Below are positions 37,523 to 60,030 of a stretch of 64,000 nt of DNA, in pieces; the first letter of the stretch is position 1, and every line of letters begins with the position of its first letter. The notes beneath the pieces are model-generated. The model was not told the origin of the DNA. It saw only the letters and a program-made list of their open reading frames with translations, and ran no database searches. Source of the stretch: Octopus vulgaris (Eukaryota); the NCBI GenBank assembly GCA_951406725.2, contig OX597827.1, positions 37,696,001 through 37,760,000 of the forward strand. The letters run 5' to 3'. The position numbers and the translations under genes are program-made.

Positions 37523-37595
<73 letters not shown>

Positions 37596-37607
<12 letters not shown>

Positions 37608-38180
37608 AAACTGAGAATGTGTGTATGTCTGTCTTCTGTCTGTCTGTCTGTGTGTTTCCCTAAAACTTGAGAACTACACAACCAATTTCATTCAAATTTT
37701 ACACATGTCTTACTTAGGGTCCGGGGAGTGTCATCGGCAAAAAAAATGTTCAACTTTTTGCCTAGGGTGAGCCCACAGCAATATCATATCTTCTCCTCTA
37801 CGATTCCCTAAAACTTGAGAACTACACAACCAATTCCATTCAAATTTTATACATGCTTTACTTAGGGTCCATGTAGTTTCATGGGCAAAAAAATGTTCAA
37901 CTTCTTGTCTAGAGCGAGCGTATAGCAATATCATATCTTCTCCACTATTTCAGTATTACGTGTTAAAAGTGAAACAAAAACGTTTCTCTATTTTATGTCA
38001 GATACTCTCACTTTAACAATAAAAATAATAATAACAATTGAATTATATGTAGTAAGTAATAATTAGAATCAAACTAAAGTATAATATAATCGTAACATAA
38101 CAAAAGTAAAAATAGCAATTGGTATAAAATTGCATCAATGACTTGAACTTGAATAAGTGGTTTCACATGAATGGGAATAA
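37596..38180 (+). mobile_element. 5' part of a non-autonomous Helitron-like element with ~150 bp internal tandem repeat
   Basis: tatatataaaa..(GTCT)n..aactacacaaccaatttcattcaaattt start resembles non-autonomous Helitrons; ccctaaaacttgagaactacacaacc repeated at 37658 and 37806. Confidence 0.55.
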
Positions 38181-38242
38181 ATTGAAAATAAAATTAGCGT
38201 GCAGAAATGGAATAGTCCAGATGGATAATAAAAAATTAAATT

Positions 38243-38291
38243 AAAGAAAAGACTATTGTCTATAAAGTATACAATGTAGAGGAAAAAGGTG
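38243..38291 (+). pseudogene. ORF1 relic, family C, left part (split by the array)
   Basis: KEKTIVYKVYNVEEK matches B KRTIVYRVFANERK and A KRTITYRTWCVESK. Confidence 0.75.
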
Positions 38292-40086
38292 GCGTTTTTT
38301 TCGGCTCCCGTGTTTTTTTGAGTTAGTTAGTTGAGTTATTCTGGTGTGTTTATTCTGGTGTGTTTATTTCGAGTAAAGAGGTTGTGAGTTCGAGTTCGTT
38401 GGAGGACGTGGAAAAATTTTTTCTTGAAAATGCAAGAGCAGACTTACGCGCGAGCGGCAGGCAGAGGCCTGGTTGCCGGTGAACTGGAAATGGAGGAGGT
38501 GATGGTCGAACAGAAGACTTTACAGAAGTATTTCGACAGTTTAAAGAGGGAGGGTGACTGTGTGATAGTCACACCGTCCGAGGAGGAGGAAAGCAGTGCA
38601 GAGAAGCGTACTATAACGTACAGGACGTGGTGCGTGGAGTCGAAGAAGATTGAAGTAGCGGAAATGGAAGAAGTGGAAAGGTGTCTGAAGGAAATTGAGG
38701 GTGAACCAGCATTTTTTAAAAGAGGAAGGAAGTATGCCACGGTAGTGGTGTATTTTAAAACAGAAGAGGAGGCAAAAAAGAACGCTACAAGAATTTTGAA
38801 ATCGGATAAGTGGACTTTGCTACCAAGTTACTGCGGAAGGAGAGCAGTGAGGATGAGAATCAATAGAATCTCACCCGAATTTAATATGGAAAGGTTGCTG
38901 GCAGCAGTGCTGTTTAACTGCAAGGATGATGTGGAGGTACTGAAGGTGGAGAAGTCAGCAGAGGTGAAGTGGTGGGGATATACGGTGCAGGTTCTGGCAC
39001 ACATAACCGTGCGAGACCTGTACAACATCCCGGAGGAGTTGGTCTACCCTGACGAAACACGGCTCCGAGTTGTGGTAGAGGGAAGACCCCCAATTTGCTA
39101 TAACTGTAAATCGAGGGGCCACATGAAGGATGTGTGCCCGCGAGAAAAAACAAAAGCACCAGAGGTTGTGATAGAGGAGTGTAAAGAAGCGTGTGTGGAG
39201 GAAGCGAAAGCGGAGGAAACACAAATGGAGGAGCAGTTAAATGAGGAAGAACGAGCAAGTGCAGAAGAGGAAAAAACAGAAGACAAGAAGAGATCAAGGG
39301 TGGAATCACCACCGAAAGATATAAAAAAGAAAAAAATCAAAAGCAAGATAGCAGAAGAGAGAGAAGAGAAAAAAGAACAGGAAGTAAAAGAAAAGGTGAG
39401 AGAGCGACCAAGGACAGAGTTTGAACAAGAATGGGAGACAAGAGTGAACGAACAATTGGAATCGTGTAAATATGGAAGAAGGCCTACAGGAAAAAACTTG
39501 AAGGCAGTTGTGATGTATATCAAGAATACAGAAGTGGAAAAGAGACTTGTAGGTAAGAAAGGGTTGGTCAGGGTGAAGGTGAACCCAAAACTGTATGGTG
39601 AAGATGTAAAAGGCGTCATTATAGACAAGGAGACATACACAAAATTAAAAAAGATATATCATGCTATGCATATAATGCATTATGTACGGTATGATAAATT
39701 ACCAGATGTAATAGATCAAACGGACCTATTGGATTATATGACGGACGAGTGTCTAATGTAAAAGAATTAGAATTGTTACTTGTAAAATTATTTGATGTAA
39801 AGTTGTGTTTTTGAACAGGAATATATGTAATGTTAACATGTAAAATTGTAAAATTATTGTACTGTGAACTGGAATATATGTAACTGTAAAATTGTATTTT
39901 GAACTGGAATATATGAAATGTATAATTGTATTTTAAACGGAACTGCGAGTTGGGGGTTCGTAAGCCGTTCCATCTCATTACATATAAATTCATCTTTTAC
40001 TTCATATTTTATTTTTACTTTATGTACCCCATGTCCCGTCTTGTAATGTCCCCCTCTTCGTGGCCCCTTGTGGGTAATAAAAAAAT
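38292..40086 (+). mobile_element. ORF1-only (HAL1-like) non-autonomous retroelement, family A
   Basis: 5' GCGTTTTTTTCGGCTCCCGTGTTTTTTT, single ORF, 3' GCCCCTTGTGGGTAATAAAAAAAT; termini shared with family B. Confidence 0.85.
38430..39761 (+). CDS. Tx1/L1-type ORF1 (gag-like nucleic-acid-binding protein, CCHC knuckle), 443 aa from ATG
   Basis: Intact ORF; N-terminal TYA motif, putative RRM-like region, VVVEGRPPICYNCKSRGHMKDVC (CX2CX4HX4C), E/K-rich linker. Confidence 0.8.
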   Translation: MQEQTYARAAGRGLVAGELEMEEVMVEQKTLQKYFDSLKREGDCVIVTPSEEEESSAEKRTITYRTWCVESKKIEVAEMEEVERCLKEIEGEPAFFKRGRKYATVVVYFKTEEEAKKNATRILKSDKWTLLPSYCGRRAVRMRINRISPEFNMERLLAAVLFNCKDDVEVLKVEKSAEVKWWGYTVQVLAHITVRDLYNIPEELVYPDETRLRVVVEGRPPICYNCKSRGHMKDVCPREKTKAPEVVIEECKEACVEEAKAEETQMEEQLNEEERASAEEEKTEDKKRSRVESPPKDIKKKKIKSKIAEEREEKKEQEVKEKVRERPRTEFEQEWETRVNEQLESCKYGRRPTGKNLKAVVMYIKNTEVEKRLVGKKGLVRVKVNPKLYGEDVKGVIIDKETYTKLKKIYHAMHIMHYVRYDKLPDVIDQTDLLDYMTDECLM

Positions 40087-40261
40087 CGCGTTTTTTTCGG
40101 CTCGTGTTTTTTCGGCTTAAAATTCGGTAAAAAAGAACAAAAAGCGTTGTTGTTGTTGTGGAAATTCTGAACGGCGTTGACGCGGTTTCGCGTTTCGCTC
40201 GTTCAGCGCGTTACACTTTTTCTGTTTTGGCGGCCGTTTTCGGTCTGTCAGACAGAAGGAA

Positions 40262-41676
40262 ATGGACTATGAGTCTCTAACAGACTTGTCCACGACAGAT
40301 GAGGAACTGGAACAGGCAATTGCAATGAAGCTGATGGAAGAAAAGGCTGGAGTTTTCGAGTCTTTATCAGACTTGTCTACGTCTGAGGAGGAGCTAGAAA
40401 TGGCAGTGAGGAAAATGGATCAGAAGCTGGGTTATACCTATGCCGGTGTAACCAAGAAGGCGGAAGAGAAAGGGGTCGACATGGCCAAGTTGCCAAGTTA
40501 CCAGAAATACATGAAAAAGGAAAGCGGTGAGGTGGAACTATCACCGACACCCAGGAGAAAAGAATGGTATGATAAGAGGACCATTGTTTACAGGGTGTTC
40601 GCAAACGAAAGGAAGAGGGTAGAAGTTGTAACCATGGAATGGATAGAGGAAGCCCTGCGAAGAACTGAGGAGGAAATAAATTTTCTGACTCGAGGATCCA
40701 AGTACGGGACCGTAGTTGTGCACTTTAAAAGTGAATCTGCAGCGAGGAAGATGGCAGCGAAGGCGGTGAAGTCGGAAAAGGTAACACTGTTACCTACGTA
40801 TTTAAACAGGAGGATTACACGAATAAGGGTGGAGGGAGTGCCACCAAACGTGGAGGCAGAATGGATTGTGGCGGCTGTGATCAGCGGCCACGAGGACGAA
40901 GTGGATATTCTCCATGCCTCGGTTAAGTCCGAGGGCTGGAGAGGCGTAACAGTGGAGCTGAACGTACAGGCAGAGACCGAGGTACTGGTGGACCTGACGG
41001 AAAGCATCAGACTGGGAGAAGTGATCATGAGAGTGTGGGTGGAGGGCAGGGCTCCACGTTGTTACAAGTGTGGCCTGAGGGGTCACATAAGAGCCTTCTG
41101 CCCTCCCCCAGGGAAAGAAATGGATCCCGAACCAGAGAGAGAGAAGCAGAAACCAGAGGAGAAGGAAACAGAGGAAGAGAATACACAGAAATGGAAGGAA
41201 GCTGGAAGTAAGAGGAAGAGAAGAATCGTGGAAAAGAAAATAATATGGAACTCCAATCTACCCCAAAACCACCCACACCCTCTGAGTCCCACCCTATCCA
41301 TGCAGACATTGAACCCACCCGCTCCCCCCCAACAAGAAAACAAAAGAAAAAAAAGAATACACACACACAAGAGATTGAAATCGAACCCAGGCCGTACATT
41401 TGTACTATGACTGAACAGAAAGAAGTTAAAAGTCTAATGGAAGAGTATAAATGGTTTGATGTTGGAGAGACTAGGTATGCTGTGATTGAAAAGAAGAACA
41501 TAGGTGAGTTTATGGTGAGGTGTGAAAGGGAGAATTGGGAGGTGAAAGATATAAGAATGAGCGATGAATTCGTGGAAAATATGGATGAGTATTTCGGAGT
41601 AAGAATGGATATGGAATTTATTCGTATTGGCAAAGAACATTCAAGTGACTATGAAAAACAAAGGACAGGTAAGTGA
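40262..41676 (+). CDS. Family B ORF1, copy B1 (one frameshift)
   Basis: ORFs 40262-41410 and 41245-41676; VWVEGRAPRCYKCGLRGHIRAFC. Confidence 0.75.
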
Positions 41677-42360
41677 TGCTGACGGACGGGGCCGTTGGTA
41701 TCGCTTTCATTTTATCATTTTTTTCGTTTAACAATTCATGTTCATAAAGTTTAATTATAATGTTCAATGTCCCCATGTCTTTTGTTGTCCCCCTCTGTGT
41801 CGCCCCTTAGTGGGTAATAAAAAATCAGCTGTGATTGAAAAAAAGAACATAGGTGAGTTTATGGGGAGGTGTGAAAGGGAGAATTGGGAGGTGAAAGATA
41901 TAAGAATGAGCGATGAATTCGTGGAAAATATGGATGAGTATTTCGGAGTAAGAATGGATATGGAATTTATTCGTATTGGCAAAGAACATTCAAGTGACTA
42001 TGAAAAACAAAGGACAGGTAAGTGATGCTGACGGACGGGGCCGTTGGTATCGCTTTCATTTTATCATTTCTTCGTTTAACACTTCATGTTCTTATAGTTT
42101 AATTATAATGTTCTATGTCCCCATGTTTTGTTATGTCCACCACTCTTCGTAGCCCCTTAGTGGGTAATAAAGAAATACATGTTTTTTTCGGCTCCGTGTT
42201 TTTTTTTTCGGCTCCTGAAAATTCGGTAAAAAGGAACAAAAAGGGTTGTTGTTGTTGTGGAAATTCTGAACGGCGTTGACGCGGTTTCGCGTTTCGCTCG
42301 TTCGGCGCGTTACACTTTTTCTGTTTTGGCGGCCGTTCTCGGTCTGTCAGACAGAAGGAA

Positions 42361-43776
42361 ATGGACTATGAGTCTCTAACAGACTTGTCCACGACGGATG
42401 AGGAGCTGGAACAGGCAATTGCAATGAAGCTGATGGAAGAAAAGGCTGGAGTTTTCGAGTCTTTATCAGACTTGCCTACGTCTGAGAAGGAGCTAGAAAC
42501 GGCAGCAAGGGAATTGGAAGAGAAGCTGGGTTATACCTATGCCGGTGTAACCAAGAAGGCGGAAGAGAAAGGGGTCGACATGGCCAAGTTGCCAAGTTAC
42601 CAGAAATACATGAAAAAGGAAAGCGGTGAGGTGGAACTATCACCGACACCCAGGAGAAAAGAATGGTATGATAAGAGGACCATTGTTTACAGGGTGTGCG
42701 CAAACGAAAGGAAGAGGGTAGAAGTTGTATCCATGGAATGGATAGAGGAAGCCCTGCGAAGAACTGAGGAGGAAATAAATTTTCTGACTCGAGGATCCAA
42801 GTACGGGACCGTAGTTGTGCACTTTAAAAGTGAATCTGTAGCGAGGAAGATGGCAGCGAAGGCGGTGAAGTCGGAAAAGGTAACACTGTTACCTACGTAT
42901 TTAAACAGGAGGATTACACGAATAAGGGTGGAGGGAGTGCCACCAAACGTGGAGGCAGAATGGATTGTGGCGGCTGTGATCAGCGGCCACGAGGACGAAG
43001 TGGATATTCTCCATGCCTCGGTTAAGTCCGAGGGCTGGAGAGGCGTAACAGTGGAGCTGAACGTACAGGCAGAGACCGAGGTACTGGTGGACCTGACGGA
43101 AAGCATCAGACTGGGAGAAGTGATCATGAGAGTGTGGGTGGAGGGCAGGGCTCCACGTTGTTACAAGTGTGGCCTGAGGGGTCACATAAGAGCCTTCTGC
43201 CCTCCCCCAGGGAAAGAAATGGATCCCGAACCAGAGAGAGAGAAGCAGAAACCAGAGGAGAAGGAAACAGAGGAAGAGAATACACAGAAATGGAAGGAAG
43301 CTGGAAGTAAGAGGAAGAGAAGAATATGTGGAAAAAAAGAAAATAATATGGAACTCCAATCTACCCCAAAACCTCCCACACCCTCTGAGTCCCACCCTAT
43401 CCATGCAGACATTGAACCCACCCGCTCCCCCCAACAAGAAAACAAAAGAAAAAAAAGAATACACACACACAAGAGATTGAAATCGAACCCAGGCCGTACA
43501 TTTGTACTATGACTGAACAGAGGGAAGTTAAAAGTCTAATGGAAGAGTATAAACGGTATGATGTTGGAGAGACTAGGTATGCTGTGATTGAAAAAAGAAC
43601 ATAGGTGAGTTTATGGGGAGGTGTGAAAGGGAGAATTGGGAGGTGAAAGATATAAGAATGAGCGATGAATTCGTGGAAAATATGAATGAGTATTTCGGAG
43701 TAAGAATGGATATGGAATTTATTCGTATTGGCAAAGAACATTCAAGTGACTATGAAAAACAAAGGACAGGTAAGTG
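42361..43776 (+). CDS. Family B ORF1, copy B2 (homopolymer frameshifts)
   Basis: ORF 42361-43512 plus a disrupted C-terminal segment. Confidence 0.7.
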
Positions 43777-44111
43777 ATGCTGACGGACGGGGCCGTTGGT
43801 ATCGCTTTCATTTTATCATTTTTTTTCGTTTAACAATTCATGTTCATAAAGTTTAATTATAATGTTCTATGTCCCCATGTCTTTTGTTGTCCCCCTCTGT
43901 GTCGCCCCTTAGTGGGTAATAAAAAATCACATGTTTTTTTCGGCTCCGTGTTTTTTTTCGGCTCCTGAAAATTCGGTAAAAAAGAACAAAAAAGGTTGTT
44001 GTTGTTGTGGAAATTCTGAACGGCGTTGACGCGGTTTCGCGTTTCGCTCGTTCAGCGCGTTACACTTTTTCTGTTTTGGTGGCCGTTTTCGGTCTGTCAG
44101 ACAGAAAGGAA

Positions 44112-45530
44112 ATGGACTATGAGTCTCTAACAGACTTGTCCACGACAGATGAGGAACTGGAACAGGCAATTGCAATGAAGCTGATGGAAGAAAAGGCTGG
44201 AGTTTTCGAGTCTTTATCAGACCTGCCTACGTCTGAGAAGGAGCTAGAAATGGCAGCAAGGAATTTGGAAGAGAAGCTGGGTTATACCTATGCCGGTGTA
44301 ACCAAGAAGGCGGAAGAGAAAGGGGTCGACATGGCCAAGTTGCCAAGTTACCAGAAATACATGAAAAAGGAAAGCGGTGAGGTGGAACTATCACCGACAC
44401 CCAGGAGAAAAGAATGGTATGATAAGAGGACGATTATTTACAGGGTGTTCGCAAACGAAAGGAAGAGGGTAGAAGTTGTAACCATGGAATGGATAGAGGA
44501 AGCCCTGCGAAGAACTGAGGAGGAAATAAATTTTCTGACTCGAGGATCCAAGTACGGTACCGTAGTTGTGCATTTCAAAACTGAGTCTGCAGCGAGGAAG
44601 ATGGCGGCGAAGGCGGTGAAGTCAGAAAAGGTAAGCCTATTACCTACGTATTTAAACAGGAGGATTACACGAATAAGGGTGGAGGGAGTGCCACCAAACG
44701 TGGAGGCAGAATGGATTGTGGCGGCTGTGATCAGCGGCCACGAGGACGAAGTGGATATTCTCCATGCCTCGGTTAAGTCCGAGGGCTGGAGAGGCGTAAC
44801 AGTGGAGCTGAACGTACAGGCAGAGACCGAGGTACTGGTGGACCTGACGGAAAGCATCAGACTGGGAGACGTGATCATGAGAGTGTGGGTGGAGGGCAGG
44901 GCTCCACGTTGTTACAAGTGTGGCCTGAGGGGTCACATAAGAGCCTTCTGCCCTCCCCCAGGGAAAGAAATGGATTCCGAACCAGAGAGAGAGAAGCAGA
45001 AACCAGAGGAGAAGGAAACAGAGGAAGAGAATACACAGAAATGGAAGGAAGCTGGAAGTAAGAGGAAGAGAAGAATTCGTGGTAAAGAAAATAATATGGA
45101 ACTCCAATCTACCCCAAAACCACCCACACCCTCTGAGTCCCACCCTATCCATGCAGACATTGAACCCACCCGCTCCCCCCCCAACAAGAAAACAAAAGAA
45201 AAAAAAGAATACACACACACACAAGAGATTGAAATCGAACCCAGGCCGTACATTTGTACTATGACTGAACAGAGGGAAGTTAAAAGTCTAATGGAAGAGT
45301 ATAAACGGTATGATGTTGGAGAGACTAGGTATGCTGTGATTGAAAAAAAGAACATAGGTGAGTTTATGGGGAGGTGTGAAAGGGAGAATTGGGAGGTGAA
45401 AGATATAAGAATGAGCGATGAATTCGTGGAAAATATGAATGAGTATTTCGGAGTAAGAATGGATATGGAATTTATTCGTATTGGCAAAGAACATTCAAGT
45501 GACTATGAAAAACAAAGGACAGGTAAGTGA
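44112..45530 (+). CDS. Family B ORF1, copy B3, uninterrupted (472 aa from ATG)
   Basis: Open from MDYESL to KQRTGK*; CCHC knuckle; homologous to the family A ORF. Confidence 0.85.
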   Translation: MDYESLTDLSTTDEELEQAIAMKLMEEKAGVFESLSDLPTSEKELEMAARNLEEKLGYTYAGVTKKAEEKGVDMAKLPSYQKYMKKESGEVELSPTPRRKEWYDKRTIIYRVFANERKRVEVVTMEWIEEALRRTEEEINFLTRGSKYGTVVVHFKTESAARKMAAKAVKSEKVSLLPTYLNRRITRIRVEGVPPNVEAEWIVAAVISGHEDEVDILHASVKSEGWRGVTVELNVQAETEVLVDLTESIRLGDVIMRVWVEGRAPRCYKCGLRGHIRAFCPPPGKEMDSEPEREKQKPEEKETEEENTQKWKEAGSKRKRRIRGKENNMELQSTPKPPTPSESHPIHADIEPTRSPPNKKTKEKKEYTHTQEIEIEPRPYICTMTEQREVKSLMEEYKRYDVGETRYAVIEKKNIGEFMGRCERENWEVKDIRMSDEFVENMNEYFGVRMDMEFIRIGKEHSSDYEKQRTGK

Positions 45531-46154
45531 TGCTGACGGACGGGGCCGTTGGTATCGCTTTCATTTTATCATTTTTTTCGTTTAACACTTCATGTTCATA
45601 TAGTTTAATTATAATGTTCTATGTCCCCATGTTTTGTTATGTCCGCCGTTCTTCGTAGCCCCTTAGTGGGTAATAAAGAAATAGAAATAGAAAGATATAA
45701 GAATGAGCGATGAATTCGTGGAAAATATGAATGAGTATTTCGGAGTAAGAATGGATATGGAATTTATTCGTATTGGCAAAGAACATTCAAGTGACTATGA
45801 AAAACAAAGGACAGGTAAGTGATGCTGACGGACGGGGCCGTTGGTATCGCTTTCATTTTATCATTTTTTCGTTTAACAATTCATGTTCATAAAGTTTAAT
45901 TATAATGTTCTATGTCCCCATGTCTTTTGTTGTCCCCCTCTGTGTCGCCCCTTAGTGGGTAATAAAAAATCACATGTTTTTTTCGGCTCGTGTTTTTTTT
46001 TTCGGCTCCTGAAAATTCGGTAAAAAAGAACAAAAAAGGTTGTTGTTGTTGTGGAAATTCTGAACGGCGTTGACGCGGTTTCGCGTTTCGCTCGTTCAGC
46101 GCGTTACACTTTTTCTGTTTTGGTGGCCGTTTTCGGTCTGTCAGACAGAGGGAA

Positions 46155-47570
46155 ATGGATTATGAGTCTCTAACAGACTTGTCCACGACAGATGAGGAAC
46201 TGGAACAGGCAATTGCAATGAAGCTGATGGAAGAAAAGGCTGGAGTTTTCGAGTCTTTATCAGACTTGCCTACGTCTGAGAAGGGGCTAGAAATGGCAGC
46301 AAGGAAATTGGAAGACAAGCTGAGTTATACCTATGCCGGTGTAACCAAGAAGGCGGAAGAGAAAGGGGTCGACATGGCCAAGTTGCCAAGTTACCAGAAA
46401 TACATGGAAAAGGAAAGCGGTGAGGTGGAACTATCACCGACACCCAGGAGAAAAGAATGGTATGATAAGAGGACCATTGTTTACAGGGTGTGCGCAAACG
46501 AAAGGAAGAGGGTAGAAGTTGTATCCATGGAATGGATAGAGGAAGCCCTGCGAAGAACTGAGGAGGAAATAAATTTTCTGACTCGAGGATCCAAGTACGG
46601 GACCGTAGTTGTGCACTTTAAAAGTGAATCTGCAGCGAGGAAGATGGCAGCGAAGGCGGTGAAGTCGGAAAAGGTAACACTGTTACCTACGTATTTAAAC
46701 AGGAGGATTACACGAATAAGGGTGGAGGGAGTGCCACCAAACGTGGAGGCAGAATGGATTGTGGCGGCTGTGATCAGCGGCCACGAGGACGAAGTGGATA
46801 TTCTCCATGCCTCGGTTAAGTCCGAGGGCTGGAGAGGCGTAACAGTGGAGCTGAACGTACAGGCAGAGACCGAGGTACTGGTGGACCTGACGGAAAGCAT
46901 CAGACTGGGAGAAGTGATCATGAGAGTGTGGGTGGAGGGCAGGGCTCCACGTTGTTACAAGTGTGGCCTGAGGGGTCACATAAGAGCCTTCTGCCCTCCC
47001 CCAGGGAAAGAAATGGATCCCGAACCAGAGAGAGAAAGCAGAAACCAGAGGAGAAGGAAACAGAGGAAGAGAATACACAGAAATGGAAGGAAGCTGGAAG
47101 TAAGAGGAAGAGAAGAATATGTGGAAAAAAGAAAATAATATGGAACTCCAATCTATCCCAAAACCTCCCACACCCTCTGAGTCCCACCCTATCCATGCAG
47201 ACATTGAACCCACCCGCTCCCCCCCAACAAGAAAACAAAAGAAAAAAAGAATACACACACACAAGAGATTGAAATCGAACCCAGGCCGTACATTTGTACT
47301 ATGACTGAACAGAGGGAAGTTAAAAGTCTAATGGAAGAGTATAAATGGTATGATGTTGGAGAGACTAGGTATGCTGTGATTGAAAAGAAGAACATAGGTG
47401 AGTTTATGGGGAGGTGTGAAAGGGAGAATTGGGAGGTGAAAGATATAAGAATGAGCGATGAATTCGTGGAAAATATGAATGAGTATTTCGGAGTAAGAAT
47501 GGATATGGAATTTATTCGTATTGGCAAAGAACATTCAAGTGACTATGAAAAACAAAGGACAGGTAAGTGA
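46155..47570 (+). CDS. Family B ORF1, copy B4 (frameshifts)
   Basis: ORFs 46155-47138, 47119-47304 and 47301-47570. Confidence 0.7.
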
Positions 47571-47901
47571 TGCTGACGGACGGGGCCGTTGGTATCGCTT
47601 TCATTTTATCATTTTTTTCGTTTAACAATTCATGTTCATAAAGTTTAATTATAATGTTCTATGTCCCCATGTCTTTTGTTGTCCCCCTCTGTGTCGCCCC
47701 TTAGTGGGTAATAAAAAATCACATGTTTTTTTCGGCTCGTGTTTTTTTTTCGGCTCCTGAAAATTCGGTAAAAAAGAACAAAAAGGTTGTTGTTGTTGTG
47801 GAAATTCTGAACGGCGTTGACGCGGTTTCGCGTTTCGCTCGTTCAGCGCGTTACACTTTTTCTGTTTTGGCGGCCGTTTTCGGTCTGTCAGACAGAAGGA
47901 A

Positions 47902-49317
47902 ATGGACTATGAGTCTCTAACAGACTTGTCCACGACGGATGAGGAACTGGAACAGGCAATTGCAGTGAAGCTGATGGAGAAAAGGCTGGAGTTTTCGAGT
48001 CTTTATCAGACTTGCCTACGTCTGAGAAGGAGCTAGAAATGGCAGCAAGGAAATTGGAAGACAAGCTGGGTTATACCTATGCCGGTGTAACCAAGAAGGC
48101 GGAAGAGAAAGGGGTCGACATGGCCAAGTTGCCAAGTTACCAGAAATACATGAAAAAGGAAAGCGGTGAGGTGGAACTATCACCGACACCCAGGAGAAAA
48201 GAATGGTATGATAAGAGGACCATTGTTTACAGGGTGTTCGCAAACGAAAGGAAGAGGGTAGAAGTTGTATCCATGGAATGGATAGAGGAAGCCCTGCGAA
48301 GAACTGAGGAGGAAATAAATTTTCTGACTCGAGGATCCAAGTACGGGACCGTAGTTGTGCACTTTAAAAGTGAATCTGCAGCGAGGAAGATGGCAGCGAA
48401 GGCGGTGAAGTCGGAAAAGGTAACACTGTTACCTACGTATTTAAACAGGAGGATTACACGAATAAGGGTGGAGGGAGTGCCACCAAACGTGGAGGCAGAA
48501 TGGATTGTGGCGGCTGTGATCAGCGGCCACGAGGACGAAGTGGATATTCTCCATGCCTCGGTTAAGTCCGAGGGCTGGAGAGGCGTAACAGTGGAGCTGA
48601 ACGTACAGGCAGAGACCGAGGTACTGGTGGACCTGACGGAAAGCATCAGACTGGGAGAAGTGATCATGAGAGTGTGGGTGGAGGGCAGGGCTCCACGTTG
48701 TTACAAGTGTGGCCTGAGGGGTCACATAAGAGCCTTCTGCCCTCCCCAGGGAAAGAAATGGATCCCGAACCAGAGAGAGAGAAGCAGAAACCAGAGGAGA
48801 AGGAAACAGAGGAAGAGAATACACAGAAATGGAAGGAAGCTGGAAGTAAGAGGAAGAGAAGAATATGTGGAAAAAAAGAAAATAATATGGAACTCCAATC
48901 TACCCCAAAACCTCCCACACCCTCTGAGTCCCACCCTATCCATGCAGACATTGAACCCACCCGCTCCCCCCAACAAGAAAACAAAAGAAAAAAAAGAATA
49001 CACACACACAAGAGATTGAAATCGAACCCAGGCCGTACATTTGTACTATGACTGAACAGAGGGAAGTTAAAAGTCTAATGGAAGAGTATAAATGGTATGA
49101 TGTTGGAGAGACTAGGTATGCTGTGATTGAAAAGAAGAACATAGGTGAGTTTATGGGGAGGTGTGAAAGGGAGAATTGGGAGGTGAAAGATATAAGAATG
49201 AGCGATGAATTCGTGGAAAATATGAATGAGTATTTCGGAGTAAGAATGGATATGGAATTTATTCGTATTGGCAAAGAACATTCAAGTGACTATGAAAAAC
49301 AAAGGACAGGTAAGTGA
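47902..49317 (+). CDS. Family B ORF1, copy B5 (frameshifts)
   Basis: ORFs 48012-49019, 48674-49051 and 49048-49317. Confidence 0.7.
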
Positions 49318-49646
49318 TGCTGACGGACGGGGCCGTTGGTATCGCTTTCATTTTATCATTTTTTTCGTTTAACAATTCATGTTCATAAATTTAATTATAA
49401 TGTTCTATGTCCCCATGTCTTTTGTTGTCCCCCTCTGTGTCGCCCCTTAGTGGGTAATAAAAAATCACATGTTTTTTCGGCTCGTGTTTTTTTTCGGCTC
49501 CTGAAAATTCGGTAAAAAAGAACAAAAAGCGTTGTTGTTGTTGTGGAAATTCTGAACGGCGTTGACGCGGTTTCGCGTTTCGCTCGTTCAGCGCGTTACA
49601 CTTTTTCTGTTTTGGCGGCCGTTTTCGGTCTGTCAGACAGAAGGAA

Positions 49647-51063
49647 ATGGACTATGAGTCTCTAACAGACTTGTCCACGACAGATGAGGAACTGGAACAG
49701 GCAATTGCAATGAAGCTGATGGAAGAAAAGGCTGGAGTTTTCGAGTCTTTATCAGACTTGCCTACGTCTGAGAAGGAGCTAGAAATGGCAGCAAGGAAAT
49801 TGGAAGACAAGCTGAGTTATACCTATGCCGGTGTAACCAAGAAGGCGGAAGAGAAAGGGGTCGACATGGCCAAGTTGCCAAGTTACCAGAAATACATGGA
49901 AAAGGAAAGCGGTGAGGTGGAACTATCACCGACACCCAGGAGAAAAGAATGGTATGATAAGAGGACCATTGTTTACAGGGTGTTCGCAAACGAAAGGAAG
50001 AGGGTAGAAGTTGTAACCATGGAATGGATAGAGGAAGCCCTGCGAAGAACTGAGGAGGAAATAAATTTTCTGACTCGAGGATCCAAGTACGGGACCGTAG
50101 TTGTGCACTTTAAAAGTGAATCTGCAGCGAGGAAGATGGCAGCGAAGGCGGTGAAGTCGGAAAAGGTAACACTGTTACCTACGTATTTAAACAGGAGGAT
50201 TACACGAATAAGGGTGGAGGGAGTGCCACCAAACGTGGAGGCAGAATGGATTGTGGCGGCTGTGATCAGCGGCCACGAGGACGAAGTGGATATTCTCCAT
50301 GCCTCGGTTAAGTCCGAGGGCTGGAGAGGCGTAACAGTGGAGCTGAACGTACAGGCAGAGACCGAGGTACTGGTGGACCTGACGGAAAGCATCAGACTGG
50401 GAGAAGTGATCATGAGAGTGTGGGTGGAGGGCAGGGCTCCACGTTGTTACAAGTGTGGCCTGAGGGGTCACATAAGAGCCTTCTGCCCTCCCCCAGGGAA
50501 AGAAATGGATCCCGAACCAGAGAGAGAGAAGCAGAAACCAGAGGAGAAGGAAACAGAGGAAGAGAATACACAGAAATGGAAGGAAGCTGGAAGTAAGAGG
50601 AAGAGAAGAATATGTGGAAAAAAAGAAAATAATATGGAACTCCAATCTACCCCAAAACCTCCCACACCCTCTGAGTCCCACCCTATCCATGCAGACATTG
50701 AACCCACCCGCTCCCCCCAACAAGAAAACAAAAGAAAAAAAGAATACACACACACAAGAGATTGAAATCGAACCCAGGCCGTACATTTGTACTATGACTG
50801 AACAGAGGGAAGTTAAAAGTCTAATGGAAGAGTATAAACGGTATGATGTTGGAGAGACTAGGTATGCTGTGATTGAAAAGAAGAACATAGGTGAGTTTAT
50901 GGGGAGGTGTGAAAGGGAGAATTGGGAGGTGAAAGATATAAGAATGAGCGATGAATTCGTGGAAAATATGAATGAGTATTTCGGAGTAAGAATGGATATG
51001 GAATTTATTCGTATTGGCAAAGAACATTCAAGTGACTATGAAAAACAAAGGACAGGTAAGTGA
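49647..51063 (+). CDS. Family B ORF1, copy B6 (frameshift)
   Basis: ORFs 49647-50765 and 50614-51063. Confidence 0.7.
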
Positions 51064-51400
51064 TGCTGACGGACGGGGCCGTTGGTATCGCTTTCATTTT
51101 ATCATTTTTTCGTTTAACAATTCATGTTCATAAAGTTTAATTATAATGTTCTATGTCCCCATGTTTTGTTATGTCCGCCATTCTTCGTAGCCCCTTAGTG
51201 GGTAATAAAGAAATCACAGCGTTTTTTTCGGCTCCGTGTTTTTTTTTTCGGCTCCTGAAAATTCGGTAAAAAAGAACAAAAAAGGTTGTTGTTGTTGTGG
51301 AAATTCTGAACGGCGTTGACGCGGTTTCGCGTTTCGCTCGTTCAGCGCGTTACACTTTTTCTGTTTTGGCGGCCGTTTTCGGTCTGTCAGACAGAAGGAA

Positions 51401-52818
51401 ATGGACTATGAGTCTCTAACAGACTTGTCCACGACAGATGAGGAACTGGAACAGGCAATTGCAATGAAGCTGATGGAAGAAAAGGCTGGAGTTTTCGAGT
51501 CTTTATCAGACTTGCCTATGTCTGAGAAGGAGCTAGAAATGGCAGCAAGGAAATTGGAAGACAAGCTGAGTTATACCTATGCCGGTGTAACCAAGAAGGC
51601 GGAAGAGAAAGGGGTCGACATGGCCAAGTTGCCAAGTTACCAGAAATACATGAAAAAGGAAAGCGGTGAGGTGGAACTATCACCGACACCCAGGAGAAAA
51701 GAATGGTATGATAAGAGGACCATTGTTTACAGGGTGTGCGCAAACGAAAGGAAGAGGGTAGAAGTTGTAACCATGGAATGGATAGAGGAAGCCCTGCGAA
51801 GAACTGAGGAGGAAATAAATTTTCTGACTCGAGGATCCAAGTACGGGACCGTAGTTGTGCACTTTAAAAGTGAATCTGCAGCGAGGAAGATGGCAGCGAA
51901 GGCGGTGAAGTCGGAAAAGGTAACACTGTTACCTACGTATTTAAACAGGAGGATTACACGAATAAGGGTGGAGGGAGTGCCACCAAACGTGGAGGCAGAA
52001 TGGATTGTGGCGGCTGTGATCAGCGGCCACGAGGACGAAGTGGATATTCTCCATGCCTCGGTTAAGTCCGAGGGCTGGAGAGGCGTAACAGTGGAGCTGA
52101 ACGTACAGGCAGAGACCGAGGTACTGGTGGACCTGACGGAAAGCATCAGACTGGGAGAAGTGATCATGAGAGTGTGGGTGGAGGGCAGGGCTCCACGTTG
52201 TTACAAGTGTGGCCTGAGGGGTCACATAAGAGCCTTCTGCCCTCCCCCAGGGAAAGAAATGGATCCCGAACCAGAGAGAGAGAAGCAGAAACCAGAGGAG
52301 AAGGAAACAGAGGAAGAGAATACACAGAAATGGAAGGAAGCTGGAAGTAAGAGGAAGAGAAGAATATGTGGAAAAAAAGAAAATAATATGGAACTCCAAT
52401 CTACCCCAAAACCTCCCACACCCTCTGAGTCCCACCCTATCCATGCAGACATTGAACCCACCCGCTCCCCCCAACAAGAAAACAAAAAAAAAAAAAGAAT
52501 ACACACACACAAGAGATTGAAATCGAACCCAGGCCGTACATTTGTACTATGACTGAACAGAGGGAAGTTAAAAGTCTAATGGAAGAGTATAAACGGTATG
52601 ATGTTGGAGAGACTAGGTATGCTGTGATTGAAAAAAAGAACATAGGTGAGTTTATGGGGAGGTGTGAAAGGGAGAATTGGGAGGTGAAAGATATAAGAAT
52701 GAGCGATGAATTCGTGGAAAATATGAATGAGTATTTCGGAGTAAGAATGGATATGGAATTTATTCGTATTGGCAAAGAACATTCAAGTGACTATGAAAAA
52801 CAAAGGACAGGTAAGTGA
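51401..52818 (+). CDS. Family B ORF1, copy B7 (frameshift)
   Basis: ORFs 51401-52552 and 52549-52818. Confidence 0.7.
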
Positions 52819-53148
52819 TGCTGACGGACGGGGCCGTTGGTATCGCTTTCATTTTATCATTTTTTCGTTTAACAATTCATGTTCATAAAGTTTAATTATA
52901 ATGTTCTATGTCCCCATGTCTTTTGTATGTCCCCTCTGTGTCGCCCCTTAGTGGGTAATAAAAAATCACATGTTTTTTTCGGCTCCGTGTTTTTTTTTCG
53001 GCTCCTGAAAATTCGGTAAAAAAGAACAAAAAGGTTGTTGTTGTTGTGGAAATTCTGAACGGCGTTGACGCGGTTTCGCGTTTCGCTCGTTCAGCGCGTT
53101 ACACTTTTTCTGTTTTGGCGGCCGTTTTCGGTCTGTCAGACAGAGGAA

Positions 53149-54567
53149 ATGGACTATGAGTCTCTAACAGACTTGTCCACGACAGATGAGGAACTGGAAC
53201 AGGCAATTGCAATGAAGCTGATGGAAGAAAAGGCTGGAGTTTTCGAGTCTTTATCAGACTTGCCTACGTCTGAGAAGGAGCTAGAAATGGCAGCAAGGGA
53301 AATTGGAAGACAAGCTGAGTTATACCTATGCCGGTGTAACCAAGAAGGCGGAAGAGAAAGGGGTCGACATGGCCAAGTTGCCAAGTTACCAGAAATACAT
53401 GAAAAAGGAAAGCGGTGAGGTGGAACTATCACCGACACCCAGGAGAAAAGAATGGTATGATAAGAGGACCATTGTTTACAGGGTGTTCGCAAACGAAAGG
53501 AAGAGGGTAGAAGTTGTAACCATGGAATGGATAGAGGAAGCCCTGCGAAGAACTGAGGAGGAAATAAATTTTCTGACTCGAGGATCCAAGTACGGGACCG
53601 TAGTTGTGCACTTTAAAAGTGAATCTGCAGCGAGGAAGATGGCAGCGAAGGCGGTGAAGTCGGAAAAGGTAACACTGTTACCTACGTATTTAAACAGGAG
53701 GATTACACGAATAAGGGTGGAGGGAGTGCCACCAAACGTGGAGGCAGAATGGATTGTGGCGGCTGTGATCAGCGGCCACGAGGACGAAGTGGATATTCTC
53801 CATGCCTCGGTTAAGTCCGAGGGCTGGAGAGGCGTAACAGTGGAGCTGAACGTACAGGCAGAGACCGAGGTACTGGTGGACCTGACGGAAAGCATCAGAC
53901 TGGGAGAAGTGATCATGAGTGTGTGGGTGGAGGGCAGGGCTCCACGTTGTTACAAGTGTGGCCTGAGGGGTCACATAAGAGCCTTCTGCCCTCCCCCAGG
54001 GAAAGAAATGGATCCCGAACCAGAGAGAGAGAAGCAGAAACCAGAGGAGAAGGAAACAGAGGAAGAGAATACACAGAAATGGAAGGAAGCTGGAAGTAAG
54101 AGGAAGAGAAGAATATGTGGAAAAAAAGAAAATAATATGGAACTCCAATCTATCCCAAAACCTCCCACACCCTCTGAGTCCCACCCTATCCATGCAGACA
54201 TTGAACCCACCCGCTCCCCCCCAACAAGAAAACAAAAGAAAAAAAGAATACACACACACAAGAGATTGAAATCGAACCCAGGCCGTACATTTGTACTATG
54301 ACTGAACAGAGGGAAGTTAAAAGTCTAATGGAAGAGTATAAACGGTATGATGTTGGAGAGACTAGGTATGCTGTGATTGAAAAGAAGAACATAGGTGAGT
54401 TTATGGGGAGGTGTGAAAGGGAGAATTGGGAGGTGAAAGATATAAGAATGAGCGATGAATTCGTGGAAAATATGAATGAGTATTTCGGAGTAAGAATGGA
54501 TATGGAATTTATTCGTATTGGCAAAGAACATTCAAGTGACTATGAAAAACAAAGGACAGGTAAGTGA
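53149..54567 (+). CDS. Family B ORF1, copy B8 (frameshifts)
   Basis: ORFs 53303-54301 and 54298-54567. Confidence 0.7.
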
Positions 54568-54899
54568 TGCTGACGGACGGGGCCGTTGGTATCGCTTTCA
54601 TTTTATCATTTTTTCGTTTAACAATTCATGTTCATAAAGTTTAATTATAATGTTCTATGTCCCCATGTCTTTTGTTATGTCCGCCCTCTTCGTAGCCCCT
54701 TAGTGGGTAATAAAAAATCACATGTTTTTTTCGGCTCGTGTTTTTTTTTTCGCTCTGAAAATTCGGTAAAAAAGAACAAAAAGGTTGTTGTTGTTGTGGA
54801 AATTCTGAACGGCGTTGACGCGGTTTCGCGTTTCGCTCGTTCAGCGCGTTACACTTTTTCTGTTTTGGCGGCCGTTTTCGGTCTGTCAGACAGAAGGAA

Positions 54900-56314
54900 A
54901 TGGACTATGAGTCTCTAACAGACTTGTCCACGACAGATGAGGAACTGGAACAGGCAATTGCAATGAAGCTGATGGAAGAAAAGGCTGGAGTTTTCGAGTC
55001 TTTATCAGACTTGCCTACGTCTGAGAAGGAGCTAGAAATGGCAGCAAGGAAATTGGAAGAAAGCTGAGTTATACCTATGCCGGTGTAACCAAGAAGGCGG
55101 AAGAGAAAGGGGTCGACATGGCCAAGTTGCCAAGTTACCAGAAATACATGAAAAAGGAAAGCGGTGAGGTGGAACTATCACCGACACCCAGGAGAAAAGA
55201 ATGGTATGATAAGAGGACCATTGTTTACAGGGTGTTCGCAAACGAAAGGAAGAGGGTAGAAGTTGTAACCATGGAATGGATAGAGGAAGCCCTGCGAAGA
55301 ACTGAGGAGGAAATAAATTTTCTGACTCGAGGATCCAAGTACGGGACCGTAGTTGTGCACTTTAAAAGTGAATCTGCAGCGAGGAAGATGGCAGCGAAGG
55401 CGGTGAAGTCGGAAAAGGTAACACTGTTACCTACGTATTTAAACAGGAGGATTACACGAATAAGGGTGGAGGGAGTGCCACCAAACGTGGAGGCAGAATG
55501 GATTGTGGCGGCTGTGATCAGCGGCCACGAGGACGAAGTGGATATTCTCCATGCCTCGGTTAAGTCCGAGGGCTGGAGAGGCGTAACAGTGGAGCTGAAC
55601 GTACAGGCAGAGACCGAGGTACTGGTGGACCTGACGGAAAGCATCAGACTGGGAGAAGTGATCATGAGAGTGTGGGTGGAGGGCAGGGCTCCACGTTGTT
55701 ACAAGTGTGGCCTGAGGGGTCACATAAGAGCCTTCTGCCCTCCCCCAGGGAAAGAAATGGATCCCGAACCAGAGAGAGAGAAGCAGAAACCAGAGGAGAA
55801 GGAAACAGAGGAAGAGAATACACAGAAATGGAAGGAAGCTGGAAGTAAGAGGAAGAGAAGAATATGTGGAAAAAAAGAAAATAATATGGAACTCCAATCT
55901 ATCCCAAAACCTCCCACACCCTCTGAGTCCCACCCTATCCATGCAGACATTGAACCCACCCGCTCCCCCCAACAAGAAAACAAAAAAAAAAAGAATACAC
56001 ACACACAAGAGATTGAAATCGAACCCAGGCCGTACATTTGTACTATGACTGAACAGAGGGAAGTTAAAAGTCTAATGGAAGAGTATAAATGGTATGATGT
56101 TGGAGAGACTAGGTATGCTGTGATTGAAAAGAAGAACATAGGTGAGTTTATGGGGAGGTGTGAAAGGGAGAATTGGGAGGTGAAAGATATAAGAATGAGC
56201 GATGAATTCGTGGAAAATATGAATGAGTATTTCGGAGTAAGAATGGATATGGAATTTATTCGTATTGGCAAAGAACATTCAAGTGACTATGAAAAACAAA
56301 GGACAGGTAAGTGA
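54900..56314 (+). CDS. Family B ORF1, copy B9 (early frameshift, remainder continuous)
   Basis: ORF 55118-56314. Confidence 0.7.
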
Positions 56315-56629
56315 TGCTGACGGACGGGGCCGTTGGTATCGCTTTCATTTTATCATTTTTTCGTTTAACAATTCATGTTCATAAAGTTTAATTATAATGT
56401 TCTATGTCCCCATGTTTTGTTGTGTCCCCTCTGTGTCGCCCCTTAGTGGGTAATAAAAAATCACTTGTTTTTTTTTTGCGCTCTGTAAAATTCGGTAAAA
56501 AAGAACAAAAAGCGTTGTTGTTGTTGTGGAAATTCTGAACGGCGTTGACGCGGTTTCGCGTTTCGCTCGTTCAGCGCGTTACACTTTTTCTGTTTTGGCG
56601 GCCGTTTTCGGTCTGTCAGACAGAAGGAA

Positions 56630-58047
56630 ATGGACTATGAGTCTTTAACAGACTTGTCCACGACAGATGAGGAACTGGAACAGGCAATTGCAATGAAGCT
56701 GATGGAAGAAAAGGCTGGAGTTTTCGAGTCTTTATCAGACTTGTCTACATCTGAGGAGGAGCTAGAAATAGCAGTGAGGAAAATGGATCAGAAGCTGGGT
56801 TATACCTATGCCGGTGTAACCAAGAAGGCGGAAGAGAAAGGGGTCGACATGGCCAAGTTGCCAAGTTACCAGAAATACATGAAAAAGGAAAGCGGTGAGG
56901 TGGAACTATCACCGACACCCAGGAGAAAAGAATGGTATGATAAGAGGACCATTGTTTACAGGGTGTTCGCAAACGAAAGGAAGAGGGTAGAAGTTGTAAC
57001 CATGGAATGGATAGAGGAAGCCCTGCGAAGAACTGAGGAGGAAATAAATTTTCTGACTCGAGGATCCAAGTACGGGACCGTAGTTGTGCACTTTAAAAGT
57101 GAATCTGCAGCGAGGAAGATGGCAGCGAAGGCGGTGAAGTCGGAAAAGGTAACACTGTTACCTACGTATTTAAACAGGAGGATTACACGAATAAGGGTGG
57201 AGGGAGTGCCACCAAACGTGGAGGCAGAATGGATTGTGGCGGCTGTGATCAGCGGCCACGAGGACGAAGTGGATATTCTCCATGCCTCGGTTAAGTCCGA
57301 GGGCTGGAGAGGCGTAACAGTGGAGCTGAACGTACAGGCAGAGACCGAGGTACTGGTGGACCTGACGGAAAGCATCAGACTGGGAGAAGTGATCATGAGA
57401 GTGTGGGTGGAGGGCAGGGCTCCACGTTGTTACAAGTGTGGCCTGAGGGGTCACATAAGAGCCTTCTGCCCTCCCCCAGGGAAAGAAATGGATCCCGAAC
57501 CAGAGAGAGAGAAGCAGAAACCAGAGGAGAAGGAAACAGAGGAAGAGAATACACAGAAATGGAAGGAAGCTGGAAGTAAGAGGAAGAGAAGAATATGTGG
57601 AAAAAAAGAAAATAATATGGAACTCCAATCTACCCCAAAACCTCCCACACCCTCTGAGTCCCACCCTATCCATGCAGACATTGAACCCACCCGCCCCCCC
57701 CAACAAGAAAACAAAAGAAAAAAAAGAATACACACACACAAGAGATTGAAATCGAACCCAGGCCGTACATTTGTACTATGACTGAACAGAGGGAAGTTAA
57801 AAGTCTAATGGAAGAGTATAAACGGTATGATGTTGGAGAGACTAGGTATGCTGTGATTGAAAAGAAGAACATAGGTGAGTTTATGGGGAGGTGTGAAAGG
57901 GAGAATTGGGAGGTGAAAGATATAAGAATGAGCGATGAATTCGTGGAAAATATGAATGAGTATTTCGGAGTAAGAATGGATATGGAATTTATTCGTATTG
58001 GCAAAGAACATTCAAGTGACTATGAAAAACAAAGGACAGGTAAGTGA
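56630..58047 (+). CDS. Family B ORF1, copy B10 (frameshift)
   Basis: ORFs 56630-57781 and 57778-58047. Confidence 0.7.
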
Positions 58048-58199
58048 TGCTGACGGACGGGGCCGTTGGTATCGCTTTCATTTTATCATTTTTTTCGTTT
58101 AACAATTCATGTTCATAAAGTTTAATTATAATGTTCTATGTCCCCATGTTTTGTTATGTCCGCCATTCTTCGTAGCCCCTTAGTGGGTAATAAAGAAAT

Positions 58200-58500
58200 C
58201 ACATGGAGGAAAGCACCTTCGAAAAGTGTCTTGGTACGACTATGAAAGGTATCTAATCAGAGGCGGTAAATTCGCCACAATAGAAGCAAGGTTCGAGTCA
58301 ACGGAGCGTGCAAGGGAGTACTCGACTCGAACTTTCAAAGTGGAAATATTTTATTTTTACCTTTATATCTGGGACGTAGGACGTCCCGGAAAAAAATAAA
58401 AAATACCCCCCCCCCCCCCGAAGTAGAGGTAGGCCGGATTGTAGCCACAATTCTATACAAGAGGGAGGACAAGATACAATTGATCGAAATTGCAAGAGAC
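58200..58500 (+). pseudogene. ORF1 relic, family C, right part
   Basis: HMEESTFEKCL / YLIRGGKFATIEARFESTERAREYSTRTF / ILFLPLYLGRRTSR / PEVEVGRIVATILYKREDKIQLIEI aligns collinearly with A and B (RGRKYATVVVYFKTEEEAKK, LLPSYCGRR, PNVEAEWIVAAVISGHEDEVDIL). Confidence 0.85.
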
Positions 58501-58636
58501 GGGCTTACGTATTGTTATCACTAGCGATATCAAGATATAACTTTGTATTTTGTATTTTATGTGTAGATGTATATATATAGATATACATGTAATATGTACA
58601 CATATATATACACATATATACATGCACTAGCACTAT

Positions 58637-58667
58637 GACCCGGCAACGACGGGTCTTTAATGCTAGT
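58637..58667 (+). mobile_element. Helitron 3' terminus (hairpin + CTAG)
   Basis: GACCCG-gcaacga-CGGGTC, then tttaatg CTAG|T. Confidence 0.7.
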
Positions 58668-59426: not shown

Positions 59427-59963
59427 CAAAGAAAACCAAACCTGGGAAGAAATCAAACCTGGAGAAGTAAAATTGAAAAAGAGATTGAATTTATGAGAGG
59501 GGAAATATCAATATTAAATGAACTAATATGTGGAAATGATGTAAGATCCAGAACAGGAAGAAAAATGAAGAGAAAATTTGGATCCTCACCAAGAGAAGAA
59601 CTGATATTAATAAAAGAAACGCTGAAACAAAAAGTCCAAGCAAAAGCCCAAAGAATACGAAGATTTGAGAAGAGAAACAAGTTTTACAAGCAAAATAAGC
59701 TGTTCACATCCAATGCCAAAAAATTCTACAGAGAAATAGGGAAGGAGAAAGTAACCGTTAAAGACCCCCCTCCCATGGAAGAAGTTCAAAACTTTTGGAA
59801 AAGGATTTGGAGTGACAAGAAGACGTATAACATAAATGCAGACTGGATTATACAAACAGAAGGATCCTACCAAAATTTACAACAACAAGCATGGGAAGAC
59901 ATCACAATAGCAGACCTAAGAAAGGCACTCACGAAGGCCCATAATCGGAAATCCCCCGGTAAA
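59424..59963 (+). mobile_element. R4/Dong internal fragment upstream of the RT domain, between (TAA)n tracts
   Basis: ORF 59493-59966; its last ~200 bp duplicate the start of the downstream copy. Confidence 0.85.
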
Positions 59964-59980
59964 TAATAATGATGATGATG

Positions 59981-60030
<50 letters not shown>

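What the first reader, a model, noticed from the sequence alone, without database searches (positions are those of the whole stretch)
38243..58500. The array splits a degenerate ORF1 of a third related family
Seen: the left flank translates as KEKTIVYKVYNVEEK. The right flank continues HMEESTFEKCL..RGGKFATIEARFESTERAR..LFLPLYLGRR..PEVEVGRIVATILYKREDKI. Joined, these are collinear with A (KRTITYRTWCVESKKIEVAEMEEVERCL..RGRKYATV..LLPSYCGRR..PEFNMERLLAAVL) and B. Neither piece appears in the ORF track. Inference: the founder inserted into a relative, so three families meet at one locus. Landing by chance in a ~350 bp homologous relic seems unlikely unless relics are abundant, which hints at preferential targeting of kin elements.
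Basis: partly seen in the sequence, partly recalled or inferred. Interest (0 to 1): 0.8.

Follow-up and report, generated by a model that had tools for sequence, protein, structure and literature searches.

The report
Helitron-borne ORF1 scrap as landing pad
A 20-kb train of 13 half-size jumping genes sits inside a small rolling-circle transposon that carries a dead scrap of a related jumping gene; over a hundred copies of that transposon are hit at the same base by several families, most likely because they borrow a site-specific enzyme and not because they recognise the scrap as kin.

Summary
Observation confirmed. The flanks are a frameshifted ~350-bp ORF1 fragment (RRM region), collinear with A and B far above chance. 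It is not a lone relic: it lies inside a ~1.1-kb non-autonomous Helitron (C) with about 1,000 copies in this octopus genome. Exact-pattern searches found 372 empty sites and 117 sites filled at the same base. The occupants are an autonomous L1/Tx1-type LINE (D), a second one (G) and at least six ORF1-only families, in mixed head-to-tail arrays. Inserts are about three times younger than their Helitron flanks and scattered over the Helitron tree, so targeting is real, not chance or hitch-hiking.

'Kin recognition' is not supported. None of 219 junctions lies at the homologous position of an A/B/D/E/F ORF1 (168 intact). A Helitron variant lacking most of the scrap is still targeted. The scrap's nearest relative is a (TC)n-targeting family, not its invaders.

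Best model: site-specific target-primed reverse transcription by a Tx1-like ORF2p, used in trans by HAL1-like partners. Closest known: crocodilian Tx1-Mar/SINEU in Mariner-N4, plus HAL1 and HeT-A. The scan already noted this system at other loci of this genome. New variant of a known kind.

The parts
37594..38288 (+). Left arm of non-autonomous Helitron C. The 5' terminus is degenerate here (other copies begin TC after an A). Holds a CTGT microsatellite and an internal ~145-bp duplication
38243..38288 (+). First ~15 codons of the ORF1 relic; includes the purine tract left of the insertion point
38289..40087 (+). Unit A: ORF1-only element (ORF 38430-39761, 443 aa, CCHC knuckle; two RRM-like domains by alignment to B), with the shared 3' tail
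40088..41827 (+). B unit 1 (ORF1-only)
41828..42177 (+). 5'-truncated B piece (3' ~350 bp)
42178..45683 (+). B units 2 and 3; unit 3 has an unbroken 472-aa ORF1 (44112-45530)
45690..45972 (+). 5'-truncated B piece (3' ~285 bp)
45973..58200 (+). B units 4-10, ~1.75 kb each, head to tail. The ten full units differ pairwise by 0.4-3.2%. Most junctions begin with the first bases of the target
58201..58500 (+). Rest of the ORF1 relic (frameshifted); begins at the conserved insertion point
58501..58666 (+). Right arm of Helitron C: 19-bp palindrome at 58637-58655, CTAG end at 58666, followed by T

Best explanation
The two flanks are one non-autonomous Helitron that carries a dead ORF1 fragment in about a thousand genomic copies, and one base inside that fragment is hit again and again by an autonomous L1/Tx1-type LINE and several ORF1-only partners, which likely borrow the LINE's site-specific endonuclease and reverse transcriptase. 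SHOWN: Helitron-type ends; empty and filled sites; the same insertion base for families A, B, B2, B4, D, E, F and G; intact APE-RT ORF2 in D; a shared 3' tail; duplications and 5' truncation; inserts younger than flanks. INFERRED: (1) a Helitron captured or retained a piece of an old Tx1-lineage ORF1 and spread it; (2) ORF2p nicks at a pyrimidine|purine step about 7 nt right of the purine tract and primes reverse transcription on any RNA with the shared tail; (3) the elements' 5' heads mimic the target and anneal to it, which regenerates a site at the left junction, so chains most likely grow leftwards; the B-type joint that deletes the target would then stop D-type additions and explain the order B-type, then E/F, then D. 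The ORF1 kinship is inferred to be a passenger of the landing pad, not the signal.
For: Helitron ends at both termini of many copies, matching the definition in PMC6544945 (passages). 117 filled and 372 empty exact matches; 490 forward-strand matches to the left motif, about 980 copies. D ORF2 of 1131 aa has Exo_endo_phos, RVT_1 and zf-RVT; its best solved relative is L1 ORF2p (5e-65; R2 5e-26). 16-bp duplications flank two truncated D copies at the site. Clean 15-19-bp duplications appear at 15 of 35 off-site loci, including B-type copies, all at a pyrimidine|purine step (read by eye). Inserts differ between loci by a median 1.4-2.0% (D, B, B2) while their right flanks differ by 5.6-6.2%, like empty copies (6.4%). 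On the flank tree the D label needs 20 changes for 26 rows, shuffled mean 19.5. Order: B-type before D-type 10 of 10, E/F before D 7 of 7 in 41 loci. A left-flank variant occurs at 11 of 29 filled junctions and 0 of 20 empty sites (p=0.0014). A copy with 181 A>G among 225 differences points to passage through edited RNA.
Against: No age gradient along arrays: right neighbour older 10, left older 15, ties 3, so leftward growth is not shown. One D-then-F order exists (L127), and a G copy sits left of B-type units (L151/L130). Targeting is not strict: 20 of 54 and 7 of 18 array-end tails lay elsewhere by hand count; some of these proved to be SINEs, internal junctions or more distant families. 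Only 1 of 10 exact G tails lay in a C array. Which ORF2p moves which partner is untested. The local motif is too short to explain the specificity. Tx1-clade membership could not be tested against named references. B2 flanks are slightly clustered (16 of 500 shuffles as low).
Confidence: 0.85

Rival explanations
1. Kin recognition: the elements seek out ORF1 sequence of relatives, by homology or as a way of disabling competitors.
For: The target does lie inside a homologous ORF1 fragment, in the same orientation at all sampled sites. The elements also insert at each other's 5' heads (117 of 219 junctions).
Against: 0 of 219 junctions fall at the homologous ORF1 position of A/B/B2/D/E/F; 168 such sites are intact (the sample is drawn largely from arrays). 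The relic has no detectable DNA similarity to A, B, D, E, F or G (blastn empty) and only 28-37% protein identity to them. Its nearest relative H (42-44%) sits in (TC)n at 14 of 14 loci where its head was visible. The short C variant lacking most of the relic is filled at a similar ratio (5:14 versus 29:61, p=0.79, from two different listings).
Confidence: 0.06
2. Same target, but the arrays are made in single events: ORF2p starts on one RNA (often its own, hence D at the 3' end) and jumps from template to template.
For: D is nearly always 3'-most and never left of a B-type unit. There is no age gradient along arrays. Template jumping is invoked for SINEU 5' extensions (PMC4494074, section read).
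Against: Junctions carry locus-specific DNA: local target variants at internal heads (L124-L126) and 19-35-bp pieces of the local flank (L112, L121, L122). These look like duplications from separate nicks. 15 of 41 loci have no D at all. Private mutation loads of D and B in one array do not correlate clearly (rho 0.45, p 0.23, n=9).
Confidence: 0.25
3. Part of the window's B run grew by unequal crossing-over or local re-copying after a few insertions.
For: 6 of 10 window units have their nearest neighbour inside the window (0.4-0.8%). Other arrays repeat one odd spacer or one truncation point many times (L156-L158, L170).
Against: No two window units are identical, 4 of 10 are closer to a copy elsewhere, tails of two subtypes alternate, and truncated pieces are interspersed. 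This rival does not explain the target choice.
Confidence: 0.25
4. Hitch-hiking: one insertion happened once and the Helitron amplified the composite.
For: B-type left junctions are nearly uniform across loci. B2 flanks show weak clustering.
Against: At least eight families and different truncations occur at the site. Flanks are three times more diverged than inserts. The D label is random on the flank tree.
Confidence: 0.03

Closest known systems
Tx1-Mar and SINEU in Mariner-N4_AMi (crocodilians); Tx1L in Tx1D (Xenopus); Tx1-9_AMi in Harbingers (PMC4494074, passages and part 3 of 5 read)
   Same: An APE-type LINE prefers a site inside a non-autonomous DNA transposon. Non-autonomous partners share the site. 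Tandem insertions sandwich a ~16-bp duplication. Hitch-hiking is excluded by the same logic. A 5' extension derived from the target is described for one SINEU subfamily.
   Different: Here the host is a Helitron, and the site lies in a captured ORF1 fragment of the LINEs' own lineage. The partners code for ORF1 rather than being SINEs. Arrays reach 13 or more units of mixed families in a fixed order.
HAL1, HeT-A, Ag-Sponge: ORF1-present non-autonomous LINEs (PMC5786205, passage; Bao and Jurka 2010 not held)
   Same: ORF1 only, with a LINE-like 3' tail and no RT. HeT-A forms head-to-tail arrays with autonomous partners (search listing).
   Different: Several deeply diverged families (about 36-38% ORF1 identity of A, D and F to B) share one internal, non-telomeric site. 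The ORF1 has two RRM-like domains and a CCHC knuckle.
Non-autonomous Helitrons with captured gene fragments (PMC6544945, passages)
   Same: 5'-TC, 3' palindrome plus CTAG, no duplication, internal captured fragment, deletion variants.
   Different: The captured piece is a retrotransposon ORF1 and serves as an insertion hot spot.
Kibi, the (TC)n-targeting Tx1 family of fish (PMC4494074, passage)
   Same: Family H, the relic's nearest relative here, sits in (TC)n.
   Different: H was not tested for orthology to Kibi, and its ORF2 was not examined.

Membership tests
Helitron (non-autonomous) | 5' TC terminus | tested here: met
   Present in most of the 28 5' ends listed; degenerate in the window copy
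Helitron (non-autonomous) | 16-20-bp palindrome close to a 3' CTRR end | tested here: met
   19-bp palindrome, 7 nt, then CTAG in the window and in most of the 44 3' ends listed
Helitron (non-autonomous) | Inserted between A and T, without duplication or terminal inverted repeats | tested here: met
   A before TC and T after CTAG. Many flanks are (TA)n, which would hide a short duplication
Helitron (non-autonomous) | Autonomous RepHel partner with the same ends | not tested
   Not searched
L1 group LINE (family D) | ORF1 plus ORF2 with N-terminal APE, RT and C-terminal zinc motif | tested here: met
L1 group LINE (family D) | 5' truncation and target duplications | tested here: met
Tx1 clade | RT groups with named Tx1/Keno/Kibi/Koshi sequences | not testable with these tools
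   No named Tx1 reference among the best 120 hits or in the cluster names
Tx1 clade | Sequence-specific targeting of multicopy sequences | tested here: met
   the relative H targets (TC)n
HAL1-like ORF1-only LINE (A, B) | Single ORF homologous to a LINE ORF1, no RT or endonuclease | tested here: met
   predicted fold matches tandem RRMs
HAL1-like ORF1-only LINE (A, B) | 3' tail shared with an autonomous LINE, and LINE-type insertion marks | tested here: met
   duplications at B-type off-site copies L117-L120
HAL1-like ORF1-only LINE (A, B) | Mobilisation in trans shown by experiment | not testable with these tools
   Needs a retrotransposition assay
HAL1 proper (mammalian L1-derived) | Descent from mammalian L1 ORF1 | tested here: not met
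   Pfam gives only zf-CCHC; the ORF1 profile finds no L1 ORF1p in the PDB at E<=1. Works like HAL1, not a member

The most novel reading that the evidence does not exclude
A self-made landing pad. A rolling-circle transposon spread a scrap of a Tx1-lineage gene to ~1,000 sites, and a guild of LINEs and half-LINEs of that lineage co-evolved with it. Their 5' heads mimic the target and overwrite the left flank by homology (R2-like joining in an APE-type element). They rebuild the site for the next arrival in a fixed order, and subfamilies re-tuned their heads when a deletion changed the Helitron. This would be a natural system for testing how APE-type LINEs gain and shift target specificity.
Probability: 0.35. 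Interest if true: 0.7.

Novelty: new variant of a known kind. Interest (0 to 1): 0.52.

Why it matters
Site-specific APE-type retrotransposons are few and are of interest as gene-insertion tools. This system has intact autonomous copies, hundreds of natural empty and filled sites, off-site insertions that show the minimal cut motif, and a target variant with matching re-tuned subfamilies. The determinants of specificity can therefore be read from the genome and tested directly. It also shows ORF1-only elements forming HeT-A-like trains away from telomeres. Each ingredient is known; I did not find the combination in seven literature searches. Repbase and most subscription papers were not searchable, and the 2026 O. 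vulgaris repeat paper lists 13 active L1-Tx1 families without describing nesting in the passages I saw (supplements not opened).

Tried and rejected
Chance nesting: rejected. A generic tail search as denominator failed because a SINE with ~25,000 copies shares the tail. TATA-box tethering, a lead from an earlier scan note: a TATA-like hexamer does lie 30-39 nt left of the C site, but only 2 of 21 off-site loci with a duplication had one at 25-42 nt, against a 5% background; not supported in this small, mostly truncated sample. Age gradient along arrays: none. Intact source family of the relic: not found among 50 loci from a 150-hit ORF1 search or 4 database homologs; the best is H at 42-44%. 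Extension of the relic beyond ~120 codons: not found. Expression: no RNA holder on record was listed; contigs from four runs guessed to be RNA cover C and parts of A and B, which is not evidence either way. Named Tx1 references: none returned. One Fisher test used a miscount (12 instead of 11) and was redone. Two loci with truncated flanks were dropped from the flank comparison, and three units from the private-mutation count.

Full report
What is in the window. Positions 38289-58200 hold 13 head-to-tail units: one A, ten full B and two 5'-truncated B pieces, each ending in the same short tail. A and B code for one protein with a CCHC knuckle. The predicted fold of the B core (pLDDT 86) matches tandem RRM domains. 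There is no RT. A frameshift-aware alignment of the abutted flanks scores 128, 124 and 172 against A, B and D, with control maxima of 39-51; the left piece alone is not significant. The relic spans about 120 codons and no more.

What the flanks are. A genome search with the right flank gave 2,110 candidates, 40 scored. Of 20 loci fetched, 9 were uninterrupted and 11, the window included, were filled at the same base. The shared element runs 37594-38288 plus 58201-58666. Its copies start with TC after an A and end with a 19-bp palindrome and CTAG before a T, the Helitron signature given in PMC6544945 (passages). An exact left-arm motif has 490 forward matches, so about 980 copies. Of 85 distinct sites listed, 61 were empty long form, 14 an empty short form lacking ~315 bp of the relic, 9 filled and 1 deleted (hand count). 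The host is an octopus: D ORF1 is 99% identical to an O. sinensis predicted protein.

Who lands there. Exact patterns give 117 filled and 372 empty sites. In the first 40 filled loci plus the window, the units fall into an autonomous 5.26-kb LINE D and ORF1-only families A, B, B2, B3, B4, E and F. D's 1131-aa ORF2 has APE, RT and zf-RVT and is closest to L1 ORF2p among solved structures. A second autonomous family G (75-77% DNA identity to D) has a B-type head and tail and heads one C array, but only 1 of its 10 exact tails lies in a C array. Family-specific tail searches give the denominators. For D/E/F tails, 72 distinct sites were listed: 18 internal, 29 at the C base, 5 in the short C variant and 20 other. 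For B/B2 tails, 70 were listed: 52 internal, 11 at the C base and 7 other (hand counts). Fetching all 27 'other' sites showed mostly 5'-truncated copies, some SINEs and some internal junctions. Chance for the exact base is about 2e-7.

Independent retrotransposition. Between loci D, B and B2 differ by a median 1.9, 2.0 and 1.4%. The right flanks of the same loci differ by 5.6, 5.9 and 6.2%, and empty copies by 6.4% (two truncated flanks dropped). On a tree of 59 flanks D-filled copies are randomly placed (20 changes, shuffled mean 19.5) and B2 is weakly clustered (support is low). Truncated D copies at the site have 16-bp duplications. 15 of 35 off-site loci have clean 15-19-bp duplications, all at a pyrimidine|purine step. 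One B4 copy differs from another by 181 A>G of 225 changes and one B by 63 of 82. I read this as A-to-I editing of the RNA before insertion (inference).

Is kinship the signal? Three tests say no. First, none of 219 distinct tail junctions continues at the homologous ORF1 position, while 168 such positions are intact; 117 continue at another element's 5' head (the sample is enriched for arrays). Second, the short C variant keeps only the left ~15 codons and is still filled, about 7 nt right of the same purine tract, by subfamilies 87-93% like D whose heads copy the new target. The filled:empty ratios are alike (p=0.79). Third, among 25 ORF1s compared the relic is closest to family H (42-44%; tree support 84/93), ahead of D (36-37%) and A or B (28-33%). 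H lies in (TC)n at 14 of 14 loci where its head was seen, out of 20 fetched. No DNA-level similarity to the invaders was found. Bases right of the cut, or subfamily age, also matter: one C subfamily makes up 23 of 28 filled ends but 14 of 59 empty sites (p=4e-7).

How the arrays likely form. Full-length D-type elements begin with a target-like head, so the left junction looks like a fresh target. Internal heads carry the local target variant (L124-L126). B-type left junctions usually delete 8-11 target bases. They bring a flank variant seen at 11 of 29 filled and 0 of 20 empty sites, and in three loci a second variant further left. This suggests homologous joining through a target-like 5' end. 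B-type units always lie left of D-type units (10 of 10), although B-type units use the intact target at 13 or more loci. This fits growth at the left junction. Against it, there is no age gradient, so template jumping stays open. The window's units are all different (0.4-3.2%); 6 of 10 are closest to a neighbour in the window, so some local re-copying is possible.

Comparison with what is known. Tx1 LINEs that target non-autonomous DNA transposons with non-autonomous partners are described (PMC4494074: passages and part 3 of 5). So are ORF1-only LINEs (PMC5786205: passage) and Helitron capture (PMC6544945: passages). D works like Tx1-Mar; formal Tx1 membership could not be tested. A and B work like HAL1 and HeT-A but are not mammalian HAL1. 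I did not find a Helitron target, or a target inside a captured ORF1; Repbase was not available. After these analyses I saw that the scan had noted the same system at other loci. Those notes are not independent evidence; the one new lead (TATA tethering) was tested and not supported.

Verdict. The cause is a multicopy, Helitron-borne landing site, not recognition of kin. New variant of a known kind; interest 0.52.

Noticed in passing
window 15989-16441; genome-wide: A 184-bp SINE in tandem copies ends in the same 3' tail as A/B/D. The generic tail pattern has 12,472 forward matches, mostly this SINE, which is probably moved by the same LINE lineage.
   Followed up: partly
L090, L053 first unit, L067 last unit: Copies with strand-specific A>G excess (181 of 225; 63 of 82; 31 of 53), likely RNA-editing marks fixed in DNA.
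   Followed up: partly
L211-L227: An abundant related family H inserted in (TC)n microsatellites, Kibi-like. Its head shares a motif with B-type heads, and it is the relic's nearest sampled relative.
   Followed up: partly
L112, L121, L122: Off-site tandem pairs that repeat 19-32 bp of local flank. In L122 two different B subtypes share one truncation point, suggesting that a new copy's 5' end is joined by homology to the resident copy.
   Followed up: partly
L156-L158 (C2), L166, L170: A longer array (about 14 B units plus D) with a repeated 30-bp foreign spacer; another repeats a left-arm piece with a private deletion; another repeats one 5' truncation four times.
   Followed up: no
L172, L180: Two family-G copies share a different downstream sequence, and L172 contains part of the spacer seen in the L156-L158 array; G may have a second repetitive target.
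   Followed up: no
window 59430-62500 (+) and 28553-31109 (-): Two 95% identical copies of an unrelated RT-coding LINE set in (TAA)n runs. The C-terminal motifs look like a restriction-like endonuclease of the R4/Dong type (recalled, not tested).
   Followed up: no
window 16917-17752: An 830-bp degenerate interstitial TTAGGG-type array with 126- and 234-bp higher-order periods.
   Followed up: no
P0002: A database protein named 'EPM2A-interacting 1-like' in O. vulgaris is 75% identical to D ORF1, so it is probably a misnamed LINE ORF1.
   Followed up: no
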